From assembly GCA_964016885.1 (NCBI GenBank), contig OZ024743.1, positions 309,256,001-309,320,000 of the forward strand: a stretch of 64,000 bases of DNA, written 5' to 3'. Shown here piece by piece: positions 1,871 through 63,316 of the stretch. The notes beneath the pieces were generated by a model that saw only the letters and a program-made list of their open reading frames with translations, made no database searches and had not been told where the DNA came from. Made by a program: the position numbers and the translations under genes. The stretch comes from Eledone cirrhosa. Its lineage: Eukaryota. How positions within the stretch are numbered: position 1 is the stretch's first letter; each line of letters opens with the position of its first letter.

Positions 1871-2200
1871 ATGTAATGGAGATATAAATATAACCTGCAT
1901 AGGAATTCCCGCGAACTCACTGCCTAACCATGGAAATATCTTTTTAAGTCAAACTAAGCCGTACGTTAAAACTATCCACGACTCAGGATAACAAGTTATC
2001 GTTATAGGTAATCCAGTTAGATTTTGTGAGTACTCTGTGTCGTGAATAGTTTTAACGTACGGCTTAGTTTGACTTAAAAAGAAATTTCCATAGTTAGGCA
2101 GTGAGTTCGTGGGAATTCCTATGCAGGTTATACTTATATCTCCTTTACATTATTTACCGCTGACCAAATCCTCAGAATACGAGTGATTCATACATGGCAC
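1871..2200. repeat. Inverted-repeat cassette in (TA)n (PLE pLTR-like)
   Basis: Arms at about 1871-1986 and 2035-2152 are reverse complements with a few mismatches. Flanked by TA tracts. No hammerhead core seen. Confidence 0.75.
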
Positions 2201-2533
2201 GATATATATAGAGAAATAGCATATAATGAAAACAATAACAGCAATAATAAAATATATGATAAGTAGGTAAATAAGTTACAGATGTAAAAGTAAAAATAAG
2301 AAAAAAGATACAGTAAAAAAGTAAGAAAATGAAAAAATAATTAAAAATATAAAGAAATAAGGATAAGTGAGAGCATATAAGTACAGAATATGATAGTGGT
2401 GGTGGTGAGTAAGTGTCCGTTTAAGGATGCTTTAAGATTGGAAGCACTCTACAGTAAAAAATAATATTCCGGAGTTATTAATATTAAAATATAAATATTA
2501 ATAAAATAGATGTTCTTTTGATCAGTTACATTT

Positions 2534-2581
2534 TATTATACATATTTCGGATGTACAACAGTACGTCCTCATCAGACAATA
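2534..2581 (-). ncRNA. Type I hammerhead ribozyme motif
   Basis: Minus strand reads TATTG-T-CTGATGA-GGACGTAC(TGTT)GTACATCC-GAAA-TATG-TA-TAATA: intact core, stem II, a minimal stem III and stem I. Confidence 0.75.
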
Positions 2582-2637
2582 TATAATGATACATGACATA
2601 CCCTGAGATATCTCGGGGTATGTCATGTATCATTATA

Positions 2638-2685
2638 TTTTGTCTGATGAGGACGTACTGTTGTACATCCGAAATATTTATAATA
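2638..2685 (+). ncRNA. Type I hammerhead ribozyme motif
   Basis: TTTTG-T-CTGATGA-GGACGTAC(TGTT)GTACATCC-GAAA-TATT-TA-TAATA. Mirror copy of 2534-2581. Confidence 0.7.
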
Positions 2686-2770
2686 AAATGTAATTAATCA
2701 AAAGAACATCTATTTTATTAATATTTATATTTTAATATATATATTTATATATATATATATATATATACAT

Positions 2771-2906
2771 AGTGGTAGAACACTGGAAGGTAATTTCCGT
2801 AGTGGTAGAGCACTCAGGCCATGGGAAGAGTTAGGTATATATATGAGGATCCGCTAAGGTGAACCAATTTTTCTCGGTATGGTGAGCTAACTGTTGTGTA
2901 ACCACC
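2771..2906. repeat. Fragment of the PLE-like cassette family at 50265-50512
   Basis: The left part is the reverse complement of 50449-50512. The right part (TGAGGATCCGCTAAGGTGAACCAATT...) matches 50384-50450. Confidence 0.75.
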
Positions 2907-58597: not shown

Positions 58598-59629
58598 ATA
58601 TATATATATACATATATATATATATATATATATATATATATATATATATATATATATATATATATATATATATATATATATATATATAGAATAGAAAACG
58701 AAAAATCAGTGATGCATCTGAAGTCAATTTAGTGTTACAATTGTTTCCTCGGCAGACAGCTCGAGACACGATCATTGTGTGGATCTGTCCGATTCTGGAC
58801 CCGCAGGTTCGACGGACATGTCTAATGATATATGTATATATATATATATATATATATATATATATATATATATATATATATATGAGTTAACCGTTGCCAT
58901 CGTGGATCAAAAGCAACAGCAGTCGATCAAATCTTGGCTCGATCAATTCTTGATAAAAGAAAATAATGCGTTGTATCAAATTCCATCGATGTAAAAATTG
59001 ACAGAATAATACTAATAAAACTCTCGGGTCAAATTCAATTACTTCGTAAACAGCTTCGTCGGACCTGTTTATATATGTGGTTAAATGCACAACGTACATT
59101 TACAGCTATTGCACAAGTTGTTTAGAGGAGTTATAAGCAACATATATCATCCTTTTAGTGTTGTAGGATTTTTGCAGAGCCTGTGTGAATGACTTCTACA
59201 GTCAGATGTATTTTGCAGTTACTGTCACGTGGCTACGTTGTAGTAACTTTACCAGCTTCGATGCCTTCAAAAGTTAACACGCACTCAACCGATTTAGAGG
59301 AGAATATAACTTAGGAGTGTGTTAATGAAGGTTCTTAAATGTTATTGGGACAATAAGCACTTTGCATTTAAGAAAATTTATCATCAAATTATGACATCTC
59401 AACGACCAATTGAGAATTCAATATGCCATCTCTGGATCAAATTTAGGAGATGATTTTGATCTTAATTTACAGAGCTTCCAAATTTTTAATAGTTATAAAA
59501 GCCCAGACCTCCTGTTTATTGAAGTAATAAACATAATGTTGAAAACCCAATGAGATTAACAAGTTGGTTCAAGGAAAAATAATACACTTGTTTTTATGAA
59601 TTCATCTGTTTTCTTTAATATTGATAGAA

Positions 59630-59880
59630 GGCGGAGGATTGGAAGTATCGGCAGAGCGTCGAGCAACTTGCTTTGTGGCATATAGTTACGTCCCTTTACC
59701 TTTTGAGTTCAAATCCCACTGCGGTTAGCTTTGCCTTTCATCCTTACGAGGTCCATAAATTGAAGTACTTGTAACACTCTGGAGTCGATTTAATCGACTT
59801 TCACCTTCCTTTAAAATTGCTGGCCTTGTACCTTGTACCAAAAGTAGAAAAAACCTTGTACCAAAAGTAGAAACAATTAT
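59630..59880 (+). mobile_element. tRNA-derived SINE
   Basis: GGCGGAGGATTGG..., GAGTTCAAATCC, GCCTTTCATCC core and a duplicated CCTTGTACCAAAAGTAGAAA tail. Confidence 0.8.
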
Positions 59881-61179
59881 GTTAATATTAATACTGCCGG
59901 TATTAGGCGGTCTAGCTCACCCAAAATATTCACGTTCGCTTACTGTAACAGCTTTAGTTTTGTGTATATTTCTTATATAACCATCTAAGATTTCAACATA
60001 TTTTAATTCATTTGCTTGAAGCTCCAGACAGAGTTTTCGAACCAACAAGATAACCTAGTTTGTAACTTGGTATGCTATAAATTACAACCAAACCTACTTC
60101 AGCTTACATTCCAGTATGTTATTAAAATGATAGACTGTATAATATACTTTAGAAATCATTTAATGTCAAAAAAGATTTTTGTGGTAAAAATACCATAGGT
60201 CAACTTTTGATTATAACCTGAGGGCTAAATATTTGTTGTTTTCGTTTCTGTTAAAATAACTGATAGACATTTAAAATACTAAGTTCTCACTGTTCATTCA
60301 CTCACGCCTATTCTAATATGTTTCAATGACAAACATTATTTGGAGTAAGGTGCACATAGATTCACGCATCATTTATCTTTAATGCCCGTAAGACCATTAC
60401 AATCATATATAAATAAGAGCTTCTTGAAGCTTGCATTGCAATGTTTGAAAATTGGGGTGAGTCTATTCAATAGACTTTAAGAGTCCATCTCCTATATTAA
60501 TATCATAACTAAAGCAATATGGCTTCAATATATATATAAAATCCACTTAAGCATCATGGCTTTTTATTAATCATACACTCCTGACTGGTATTTACTGCAA
60601 TGCAGCTCTATTAAATTCCTTTTCTATTCATACTTAGAATCATCTTTGATTACAAGTAAATACAGATAATATTCAGAACAGTGATGGATAAACAAAGACC
60701 CGCACGCGCGCACACACGCACGCACACACACACACACACACACACACACACACACACACACACACACACACACACACACACACACACACACACATATATA
60801 TAGGTACTGATACAGACACATACACATAGGCATACATACATATATATATAGGCTCACAATTACACATATGTACAAATACACATACAGGGACACACATACA
60901 CATATGCACACATACACATATAGGCAAACCTATACACACATATGTACAAATACACACATAGGCACAAATTTACACATAGGCACGCATACATACATAGGCA
61001 CACACATACATAGGCACACATATGCACATAGGTACATACACAGGCACACATATACACATAGGGATAATTATTCTGATCGGTCGACAAGATCCCAGACCTC
61101 ATTCTCTTGCCGAGTGGGGTGGACCTCCTCAAATACGACCAAGGAAACAATGTTTTTATTGGTCTTTCTAGTTGCTGAT

Positions 61180-61335
61180 ACTATCTACAGGTCGCAACTC
61201 CTCCAGATAGAAGGAGCAACGTGAAATAAAGTGTCTTGCTCAAAGACACAACACATCACACGGTTCGAGAATTAAACTCACAACCTCACGATTCCGAATC
61301 CAACTCTCTAGCCACTAAGCCACGTGCCTTCACAT
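61180..61335 (-). mobile_element. tRNA-SINE of a second family (relatives at 48930-49205, 56620-56695 and 61540-61633)
   Basis: Reverse complement begins GAAGGCACGTGGCTTAGTGGCTAGAG (A box), then a B-box-like GAGTTTAATTCTC, then TCTTTGAGCAAGACACTTTATTTCACGTTGCTCC. Confidence 0.65.
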
Positions 61336-62410
61336 AGGTAATGAGTTATTGGAAATCCGTAGGTTTTGTCGATGATTATTCCAGTTGTTTGATCAACAGA
61401 AATGTATGTTAGTGAAATTAATGTGCAAGTGTCTGAGCAGTCCACAGAAACAGCTACCCTTAATATAATTCCCAAGGAGATTCAGTACGATAAATTGAAT
61501 ATGACAAAGCTGGACATTTCAATTACAGGTACAATACACTCTTTCTCTGCTGAGGGGACCGGAACAACGTGAAATGCTCCGGGACCCCACGCGCTGCCTG
61601 AAATAGAACTCACGATAGCAGAAATGCCTAACCCTTAACCCACGTTTCTTCACCGTGCAATTAATGAGGTTTTGAAAAATAATGTTAAATGTATGAAATG
61701 ATAGTTATTAAGATCATTTTATAGCAGTGTAAATTAGATTCGTGAGCTTCAACCTTTTCCCAATTATGAAAAGATATAATTATTTATGACCCCCATATGA
61801 CCAGTATCTAAACCACTAGAGTTTTATTCGTTATTAGACCACCCGTGACCCGTTGGGTCACGTTCACTTCAAAATATAAAAAAAAATCATCTTCACTTAA
61901 AAATAATTTTTAAATTATTTAAATATACACAGACATGTATATAATGAGAAATGAAACTGGAAGGCCTATATATATATATATATACATGTGTGTACGTATA
62001 TACATAAATGTGTGTATGTGTGTGTGTATATATATATATGAGTGTGTGTATATATATATATATATATATATATGGGTGTCTGTGATCTATATATACACTG
62101 GTTATAGACATACACATACATATACACATACACATATATATACACACACACTCACATATATATATATATATATATATATATATATATATATATATATATA
62201 TATAGTAATAATAAATTTGAAGTCTAAAATGCAAAGAGGGCTCGATAAGGATAAATTTATATCAAATATATAAGAACCGTAGAGCAAATATTTATTAAAA
62301 TATTGAGATTGACTTAGTTTCAGAAGATCCCGTTAAGGGTGAAAGCAGCGATTCTTTGCTTAAACTTTAATCTGTTATTTTAATAAATAAATATATATAT
62401 ATATATATAT

Positions 62411-63316
62411 ATATGAAAAAAGTTTGTCCTTCATCAGTGATCTTCCAACCATCATAGGCATTTCATCGCTTTAAAGACCATATACCTCCGGTTGGTGCGA
62501 GCAACGGCTAAAAAAAGATGTTGGGACACGTAAATAAAGGGGACGTGAGGGTAAACAAACAAAATGGTGAAGCAACAGAAAGTGAGGAAGAAAGAGACAA
62601 GTCCCAGATTTCTATGAATTTAAATTCGGTGAAATCGTGAACGAGAGAATAAAGACCATCAAACCTGGTTGAAATGTGAGCAAGGAAGGAATTTCGCACA
62701 GGTCTAACGAGAGGAAGAAGGGGTCTGGTCTACGAATTCGGTAAACATAAGTTCTGTGAAATCGTAGACGAGAGAGAGAAAAAATTCATACCAGCTTGGC
62801 CAGCGTGCGGGAGAAAAGAATTACACACAGGTCAAACGGGAAGAAAGAGGAGGAGGACAGAGAATGAGTGAGTGAAGGGTGAGGAAGAGGCTAACAGAGA
62901 GAGAGAGACTACTAGAAAGGGTAAAGATACATAGAACGAAAAAGACAGGTAGCCTCTCGTCTACGATTTCACAGAACTTATGTTTACCGAATTTGCAGAC
63001 CAGACCCCTTCTTCCTCCCGTTAGACCTGTGCGAAATTCCTTCCTTGCTCACATTTCAACCAGGTTTGATGGTCTTTATTCTCTCGTTGACGATTTCACC
63101 GAATATAAATTCATAGAAATCTGGGACTTGTCTCTTTCTTCCTCACTTTCTGTTGCTTCACCATTTTGTTTGTTTACCCTCGCGTCCCCTTTATTTAGTG
63201 TCCCAACGTCTTCTTTTAGCCGTTGCTCGCACCAACCGGAGGTATATGGTCTTTAAAGCGATGAAATGCCTATGATGGTTGGAAGATCACTGATGAAGGA
63301 CAAACTTTTTTCATAT
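62411..63316. repeat. Inverted repeat (~365 bp arms, ~180 bp purine-rich spacer)
   Basis: 62411-62774 versus 62954-63316. The same pseudo-ORF appears on both strands. Each arm ends shortly after CTGATGAAGG. Confidence 0.88.

What the first reader, a model, noticed from the sequence alone, without database searches (positions are those of the whole stretch)
1871..63316. Recurrent tails-out inverted architecture suggesting two-ended priming at palindromic (TA)n targets
Seen: about 20 inverted-repeat cassettes with arms from 35 bp to 1.1 kb. In most cassettes where a hammerhead or ORF gives orientation (2481, 30041, 31431, 50265, 50562, 51085, 54025, 57795), the left arm is antisense and the right arm sense, so both 3' tails point outward and the truncated 5' ends meet in the middle. 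The pair 55301-55378 / 56518-56596 is an exception with tails facing inward. Established: PLE copies often carry an inverted partial pLTR at the 5' end. Inference: because (TA)n is self-complementary, both target strands may be cut and each primes cDNA from an RNA 3' end, giving head-to-head insertions. That would make PLE activity a genome-wide source of palindromes.
Basis: partly seen in the sequence, partly recalled or inferred. Interest (0 to 1): 0.72.

Follow-up and report, generated by a model that had tools for sequence, protein, structure and literature searches.

The report
Penelope retrotransposons likely twin-primed head-to-head
These mirror-image repeats are the already described head-to-head insertions of Penelope-like jumping genes in TA repeats, and because each pair almost always joins one long-ended and one short-ended copy, they likely arise when both cut DNA strands start copying the element's RNA at two different sites.

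Summary
Observation confirmed: 24 inverted repeats in the window (0 after shuffling), 218 in a 1-Mb sample of the genome. All eight named cassettes are tails-out. For 11 window families the sample gave 46 head-to-head versus 2 tail-to-tail pairs. They are Penelope-like element (PLE) ends; this layout is in print, with self-priming as the published guess.

Two-ended priming is supported, with corrections. Each family has two fixed 3' ends, internal (I) and tailed (T), and 40 of 40 classifiable sampled pairs are T+I. In 21 of 40 the tail-less arm reaches further 5', which fold-back cannot make. Some T arms stop at I, leaving almost no repeat; 8 of 223 pairs join two families.

(TA)n is not sufficient: the family of the 'tails-in exception' also sits in TA tracts yet showed no inverted partner in 25 loci. 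At least two window palindromes are not PLE. One RNA versus two is unresolved; later central deletion is not excluded; no long reads or empty sites were available. The scan reached a similar reading before on other DNA of this genome.

The parts
1865..2156 (.). Head-to-head cassette of repeat family F8 (arms 122 bp, 93%); left end at (TA)n; polarity not tested by ORF or hammerhead
2435..2738 (.). Family F1: antisense arm with partial tail (2435-2609) + sense I-ended arm (2610-2738), zero spacer, hammerhead cores at 2545-2575(-) and 2644-2674(+)
2771..2909 (.).
4662..5403 (.). Family F7 (528-bp tandem unit): antisense partial tandem ending at I (4662) + sense T arm (5224-5377)
5439..5644 (.). 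Family F5: antisense T arm (5439-5580) + sense I arm (5582-5644); polarity from RT+EN frame in L087
22385..22762 (.). Inverted duplication of apparently single-copy DNA (136-bp arms, 98.5%) inside a perfect 114-bp direct duplication; not PLE
22897..23221 (.). Old repeat-family cassette with a tRNA-like SINE (22971-23143) in its centre, flanked by a 10-bp duplication
30039..30230 (.). Family F4: antisense I arm + sense T arm
31433..31738 (.). Family F4: tail-only antisense T arm (31433-31490) + sense partial tandem (T copy, then I copy)
31749..31962 (.). Family F13: I-ended sense copy with a 40-bp inverted copy of its own 5' end (snap-back type, outer end neither I nor T)
31980..32148 (.). Family F5: antisense T arm + sense I arm
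32146..34150 (.). Family F14 cassette whose left arm is split by a 1.7-kb insert; polarity not tested
48376..48697 (.). Inverted and direct patchwork of a SINE 3' end and its flank; not PLE arms
50264..50515 (.). Family F2: antisense I arm (50264-50363) + sense T arm (50374-50515); staggered by 23 nt
50562..50925 (.). Family F9: antisense I arm + sense T arm meeting at the family's common 5' start
50975..53380 (.). Young family F6: antisense T arm (50975-52288) + sense I arm (52288-53380); nested by 82 nt; 5 differences in 696 compared sites; full 773-aa ORF in L301
53405..53991 (.). Family F15: antisense I arm (53405-53768) + tail-only T arm (53826-53991) joined through a 33-42-nt templated piece
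54022..54825 (.). Family F3: antisense I arm + sense T arm, the latter interrupted by a SINE (about 54535-54721) with a target duplication
55234..56596 (.). The 'tails-in exception': two separate F16 copies (55234-55378 +, 56518-56596 -) around a mariner-like fragment
57298..57532 (.). Family F17: antisense I arm + sense T arm (polarity from end pattern only)
57790..58594 (.). Family F3: 87-bp antisense I arm + sense copy from the GIY-YIG C-terminus (57867-58064) through pLTR and tail
62408..63352 (.). Family F12: antisense I arm (551 nt) + sense T arm (400 nt); staggered by 184 nt (polarity from end pattern only)

Best explanation
The cassettes are head-to-head insertions of Penelope-like retrotransposons in (TA)n tracts, nearly always one tailed and one tail-less arm, likely made when the element's endonuclease cuts both target strands and each end primes its own cDNA, one at the distal (tail) start site and one at the internal start site. 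Shown: PLE identity of the main families, orientation, two fixed ends, the T+I rule, stagger, junction types. Inferred: both strands are nicked by one asymmetric (probably dimeric) complex; each cDNA runs to the RNA 5' end or drops off early; the T-primed cDNA often stalls where the I-primed reaction sits; host end-joining fuses the two cDNA ends. The templates usually come from the same source element; one RNA copied twice versus two RNAs is not resolved.
For: T+I rule: 40 of 46 sampled pairs T+I, 0 T/T, 0 I/I, 6 unclassifiable; 56 of 69 search-derived pairs T+I, 1 T/T, 1 I/I. Unpaired arms use both ends (75 T, 42 I), so independent choice predicts 46% T+I (p=3e-14). Stagger: 21 staggered, 8 nested, 11 equal in the sample (p=0.024); in young F6, L291, L300, L303 and L309 are staggered by 1.1-2.2 kb, and inner ends are uncorrelated (rho -0.13, n=12). 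6 of 36 sampled F5 T arms stop 4-5 nt past I. 8 of 223 head-to-head pairs join two families, about 5 of them cleanly. F6 junctions mostly have 0-3 nt overlap or short templated inserts. ORF-selected loci L182, L186 and L190 are also T+I. In vitro an Anolis PLE protein nicks and extends both strands, uses two RT start sites that bracket the tail, and is predicted to dimerise (PMC11167929, main text read).
Against: A later asymmetric deletion at the centre of a fold-back palindrome can mimic stagger, and search-derived pairs split 22 staggered to 21 nested. Arms share subfamily alleles (48 both-minor versus 21 expected; 30 discordant versus 92 expected, many of the 30 due to query selection), as fold-back or gene conversion also predict. 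Overlaps of 4 nt or more occur in 27% of 108 junctions versus 12.5% in simulated blunt joins. No strand asymmetry in arm differences (A>G 30, T>C 32), so no editing trace of separate RNAs. In vitro, start-site use did not differ between strands, so the T+I rule has no biochemical basis yet. Two-family pairs could be sequential insertions. Snap-back products exist (31749; L207).
Confidence: 0.7

Rival explanations
1. Self-priming or fold-back: one cDNA (or an antisense RNA) snaps back and copies itself; the endonuclease trims the hairpin, leaving a tail on one side; later deletions change the centre.
For: Published proposal (PMC3846280 passages; tail as EN-mediated resolution, PMC8557442 passages). 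Arms share haplotypes; 11 of 40 sampled pairs have equal inner ends; excess junction overlap; real snap-backs at 31749 and in L321.
Against: Cannot give pairs with almost no shared sequence or two-family pairs; needs kb loops on 0-3 nt of homology in F6; deletion should not prefer the T arm (21:8) nor stop at -4/-5 six times; I ends occur on unpaired copies, so they need no hairpin.
Confidence: 0.17
2. Two sequential, independent insertions into the same (TA)n tract, the second in the opposite orientation, with loss of the TA between them.
For: TA tracts collect several insertions; tail-to-tail neighbours across TA exist; would explain two-family pairs and 2771-2909.
Against: Predicts mostly mixed-family pairs (seen 8 of 223), no T+I rule and no shared alleles.
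Confidence: 0.05
3. Host repair at fragile (TA)n tracts makes inverted duplications of whatever lies next to the break, PLE or not.
For: 22385-22762 duplicates single-copy DNA beside (TA)n; 48376-48697 is a templated patchwork; templated inserts at junctions.
Against: Would not put a tail on one arm that the other lacks, nor end at family-specific I and T sites; F16 copies in TA tracts are not duplicated. It explains a minority of cassettes.
Confidence: 0.06
4. Assembly or library artefact (missed hairpin adapters, amplification chimeras).
For: No long reads could be checked.
Against: Arms differ by 0.6-7%, carry SINEs with target duplications in one arm and are asymmetric; contigs of run X2 hold other centre junctions and opposite-strand joints of the same families (X2 may or may not be independent of the assembly).
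Confidence: 0.02

Closest known systems
EN+ Penelope-like elements with inverted pLTR and one-sided tail (Adineta Pen2/Pen2a/Pen3a, PMC3846280; general layout and Naiads, PMC8557442; passages read)
   Same: Head-to-head inverted 5'-truncated copy, tail at one end only, partial tandems, AT-rich or (TA)n targets, RT plus GIY-YIG, hammerhead-like core in several pLTRs.
   Different: Tails are 33-112 nt rather than 30-40; about four in ten insertions are paired; the counted T+I rule, stagger, tail-only arms and two-family pairs argue against the published self-priming idea.
Poseidon_Ac (PAc) in vitro reaction (PMC11167929; main text read, supplements not opened)
   Same: Both strands of an AT-rich target are cut and extended; two RT start sites bracket the tail; predicted dimer.
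   Different: The main text does not link this to inverted insertions and reports no strand difference in start-site use; the genome here suggests the two ends of one event use different sites.
LINE-1 twin priming (one RNA) and dual priming (two RNAs) (PMC2837659; passages read)
   Same: Opposite-strand primers, one distal and one internal, giving an inversion joined at the centre.
   Different: In L1 the internal site is opportunistic, the two parts do not overlap and most insertions are not inverted; here the internal site is fixed, arms usually overlap into a palindrome, and the enzyme is a PLE RT with GIY-YIG.
MITEs and palindromic DNA transposons (e.g. Xenopus Harbinger, PMC5625713 passages)
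   Same: Dispersed short palindromes able to form dsRNA.
   Different: No fixed symmetric terminal repeats; the palindrome is made at insertion and differs copy to copy.

Membership tests
EN+ Penelope-like element | Single ORF with PLE-type reverse transcriptase | tested here: met
   773-aa ORF in L301 (family F6) with RT motifs read by eye (DxxxYYSSI, GSNDSAE, YRDD, FLD); Atlas feature hits 0.96-0.99 to clusters carrying HTH_animal, GIY-YIG and RVT_1 in 18-99% of members. Pfam gave no hit and PDB none of use. RT+EN frames also in L087 for F5.
EN+ Penelope-like element | C-terminal GIY-YIG endonuclease upstream of the pLTR, same strand | tested here: met
   Profile built from PF01541 hits of this genome matches upstream of F2, F3, F6, F9 arms (weak at first pass, E about 1e-3 to 1e-4; the iterated profile includes family members); F9 ends lie downstream of PF01541 hits L185, L189, L192. 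Not shown for F1, F4, F7, F8, F12-F17.
EN+ Penelope-like element | pLTR in partial tandem, tail continuing into the element body | tested here: met
   L301 tandem of 3597 bp; F6 tail runs into the ORF start in L263, L272, L301; window 31494-31738.
EN+ Penelope-like element | Optional tail on one end, inverted 5'-truncated copy | tested here: met
EN+ Penelope-like element | Hammerhead ribozyme in the pLTR | tested here: inconclusive
   Core motif in F1, F2, F3, F4, F6, F16, none found in F5, F9; Rfam gave no match at gathering score; my motif scan is noisy (13 hits in shuffles versus 32 real); cleavage untested.
EN+ Penelope-like element | Clade placement (Penelope/Poseidon, Neptune, Nematis, Hydra, Naiad) | not tested
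   No tree built. F6 has EN at the C-terminus, so it is not Naiad-type by domain order.
EN+ Penelope-like element | Target-site duplication or deletion | not testable with these tools
   Targets are TA tracts; no empty allele in the contigs laid.
LINE-1 twin priming | Two non-overlapping inverted parts of one RNA | tested here: not met
   Only 4 of 40 sampled T+I pairs stop within 5 nt of I; the rest overlap. It works like twin priming but is not an L1 product.
LINE-1 twin priming | Both cDNAs from a single RNA | tested here: inconclusive
   Shared alleles and stalls at I favour one RNA; two-family pairs need two.
MITE / DNA transposon with terminal inverted repeats | Fixed symmetric terminal repeats shared by all copies | tested here: not met
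   Outer ends are asymmetric (T versus I), centres vary, and many copies are single-armed.

The most novel reading that the evidence does not exclude
EN+ Penelope-like elements integrate by a built-in asymmetric two-ended reaction: one complex cuts both strands and primes one at the tail site and the other at a fixed internal site, so about four in ten insertions are born as hairpins. Families without a second start site make none. This would settle how PLE inverted ends and one-sided tails arise and would make PLEs a leading source (over 100,000 loci by extrapolation) of the double-stranded RNA that A-to-I editing acts on in this kind of genome.
Probability: 0.4. Interest if true: 0.75.

Novelty: new variant of a known kind. 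Interest (0 to 1): 0.5.

Why it matters
The layout is known, but its origin is described in print as undefined (PMC8557442) and the one proposal found is self-priming (PMC3846280). The T+I rule, stagger, tail-only arms, two-family pairs and a pair-free control family tie the 2024 in vitro result (both strands extended, two start sites) to genomic products, and give sharp predictions for an existing assay. With 46 pairs per Mb from 11 families alone and 1.2% of sampled bases in near-perfect TA-bounded arms, the process is a large source of potential hairpin RNA. Octopus is reported to have an exceptionally high share of such loci and of hyper-editing (PMC5625713 passages); the link is inference, and that this genome is an octopus comes from earlier notes, not from a test here.

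Tried and rejected
Rfam: no hammerhead at gathering score; the E-value list was microsatellite noise in the 150 of 236 rows shown. Motif-only orientation gave 12 out and 1 in for the sample (one cassette counted twice) but is noisy, so family references were used instead. A genome search with 53200-53378 returned nothing; a neighbouring query found 835 candidates, so the blank meant nothing. Editing test: no A>G excess between arms; apparent discordant sites (F9 1512, F1 432) are explained by query selection. The F3 cluster at -28 is a sister family sharing only the end and was set aside. Two 'tail-to-tail without TA' rows are internal hairpins. Families added to the library were assumed tails-out, so that call is not used for the orientation tally. 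Initiator-like motifs lie at the inner cluster in F4, F5 and F6 but not in F1, F2 or F9 references, so 'RNA start' stays a guess. Runs: no RNA holder listed, only contigs, no long reads; no empty site seen, and the 51085 cassette centre was not covered. Pfam and PDB did not recognise the F6 ORF. Dropped before counts: duplicate or paralogous loci L004, L036, L062, L227, L243, L245 and self-hits; six F16 paralogs counted once. Not in print as far as searched: searches found no paper proposing twin or dual priming for PLE inverted ends; the library lacks most subscription papers and no supplements were opened.
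Full report
OBSERVATION. The window lies in a 3.0-Gb animal genome. After masking simple repeats a self-comparison gives 24 inverted-repeat cassettes and none in a shuffled window. One hundred evenly spaced 10-kb stretches hold 218; the first 40 hold 97 against 0 in their shuffles. 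Ninety of the 218 have (TA)4 within 130 nt on both outer sides against 6.6% background; 56 cluster with window families and 14 are pairs of a SINE. PLE-type cassettes are thus a major source of local palindromes, but not the only one.

WHAT THE ARMS ARE. [quoted passage not shown] Endonuclease frames lie upstream on the arm's sense strand for F2 (50265), F3 (54025, 57795), F5 (5518, 32059), F6 and F9 (50562). Hammerhead-like cores orient F1, F4 and F16. F12 and F17 are oriented by end pattern only.

ORIENTATION. For 11 window families the unbiased sample gives 46 adjacent head-to-head pairs and 2 tail-to-tail neighbours, both across TA tracts. Among 30 loci picked by PF01541 alone, five carry an upstream antisense copy of their own 3' region and one has a tail-to-tail partner across 600 nt of TA. 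Paired arms number 139 and unpaired 98 in sample plus window, so about four in ten insertions are paired.

TWO FIXED ENDS. Each pairing family ends at an internal site (I) or 33-112 nt further on (T, with tail); in F6 the tail runs into the ORF start. Of 46 sampled pairs 40 are T+I, none T/T or I/I, 6 unclassifiable; of 69 search-derived pairs 56 are T+I, one T/T, one I/I; of 15 window pairs 12 are T+I. Unpaired arms use both ends (75 T, 42 I), so independent choice would give 46% T+I. Both outer ends touch (TA)n in 94 of 108 T+I pairs.

FOLD-BACK TEST. A cDNA primed on the target that copies itself gives a second arm nested in the first at both ends. In the sample 21 pairs are staggered (the tail-less arm reaches further 5'), 8 nested and 11 equal; search-derived pairs split 22, 21 and 13. 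In young F6 four pairs are staggered by 1.1-2.2 kb and inner ends are uncorrelated. Six of 36 sampled F5 T arms stop 4-5 nt past I, and similar tail-only arms occur in F2, F3, F4 and F15, including 2771-2909, 31433 and 53405-53991 in the window; some of them have no partner (L018, L078), so the stall does not require a visible second cDNA. Eight of 223 head-to-head pairs join two families, about five cleanly (L037, L057, L092, L257, L316). F6 junctions mostly show 0-3 nt overlap or short templated inserts. Over 108 junctions 27% overlap by 4 nt or more and 29% have inserts of 4 nt or more, against 12.5% and 1% in simulated blunt joins, though divergence from the reference inflates the inserts. 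This looks like end-joining (inference).

TEMPLATE. Arms are closer to each other than to other loci in older families (F1 4.0 versus 5.8%, F5 4.0 versus 12.1%, F4 5.5 versus 14.8%), only slightly in F3 (3.1 versus 3.6%) and not in F6 (0.6 versus 0.6%), and they share subfamily alleles (48 both-minor against 21 expected). There is no A>G asymmetry. Inner ends of short arms cluster in 9-nt windows (F9 35 of 46, F5 42 of 87, F4 18 of 37; search queries bias F9), upstream of the hammerhead core where there is one; these are probably RNA starts (inference).

ROLE OF (TA)n. F16 ends in TA or CA-then-TA tracts, shows one clear end class, and had no inverted terminal partner within 1.5 kb in 30 loci (25 independent; several copies extend further 5' than the reference) nor among its 20 arms in sample plus window. 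A self-complementary target is therefore not sufficient. A second start site appears to be needed (inference from one family whose ORF was not found).

EXCEPTIONS. 22385-22762 is an inverted duplication of apparently single-copy DNA, 48376-48697 a SINE-flank patchwork, and 31749 a 40-nt snap-back. Fold-back does occur as a minority route.

LITERATURE. Head-to-head is called the most frequent PLE arrangement, with self-priming proposed (PMC3846280, passages). The inverted copy, one-sided tail and (TA)n targets are described with the mechanism undefined (PMC8557442, passages). PAc nicks and extends both strands from two start sites and is predicted to dimerise (PMC11167929, main text). L1 twin and dual priming are the nearest mechanisms (PMC2837659, passages). 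The retrozyme preprint 10.64898/2026.07.22.740005 (passages) added nothing on inversions. Six searches found no paper applying twin priming to PLE inverted ends; supplements were not seen. Earlier notes of this scan reached a similar reading on other DNA; they are leads, not support.

VERDICT. Real, genome-wide and architecturally known. Two-ended priming at two different sites is the best explanation (0.7); fold-back with later deletion is the main rival (0.17). Interest 0.5.

Noticed in passing
window 21938-22885: Single-copy inverted duplication nested in a perfect 114-bp direct duplication and ending in (TA)n; looks like a young template-switch repair event at a TA tract.
   Followed up: partly
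L037:1267-1652, L057:1382-1638, L092:8664-8961, L257:725-882, L316:1368-1694: Head-to-head joins of two different families with no TA at the junction; L316 and probably L037 still follow the T+I pattern.
   Followed up: partly
L295:2713-2725, L309:4414-4440, L280:1240-1270: Short templated inserts at centre junctions (snap-back or copied from nearby arm sequence), resembling polymerase-theta end-joining (recalled, not tested).
   Followed up: partly
window 55234-55378 and L333-L362: Family F16 often has a short (CA)n or (TACA)n run between its fixed end and the TA tract; could be target choice or telomerase-like repeat addition.
   Followed up: no
L126:6467-7935; window 4662-5403; L173, L061, L098: F7 (528 bp) and F15 (about 543 bp) occur as short tandem units with hammerhead-like cores, like non-autonomous retrozyme-type PLE derivatives, and also form inverted left arms.
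   Followed up: partly
window 1865-2230 and 33940-34150; L080, L081, L131, L153: Families F14 and F8 follow one another across an internal (TA)n in several loci and may be parts of one element.
   Followed up: no
window 5654-14137: Two tandem copies (86-90% alike) of an RT-encoding LINE-like element; a 916-aa frame at 10992-13742(-).
   Followed up: no
window 38412-42735: Broken frames resembling a Helitron Rep/helicase (recalled motifs, no library check).
   Followed up: no
window 32243-33939 and 55379-56489: DNA-transposon-like inserts: a 303-aa frame at 32753-33664 and a mariner-like transposase fragment (recalled motifs).
   Followed up: no
window 37882-38081: A run of 200 N (assembly gap or withheld stretch).
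   Followed up: no
window 35150-35398(-), 47226-48070(-): Further 5'-truncated PLE bodies with GIY-YIG frames; no local inverted arm was seen for them.
   Followed up: no
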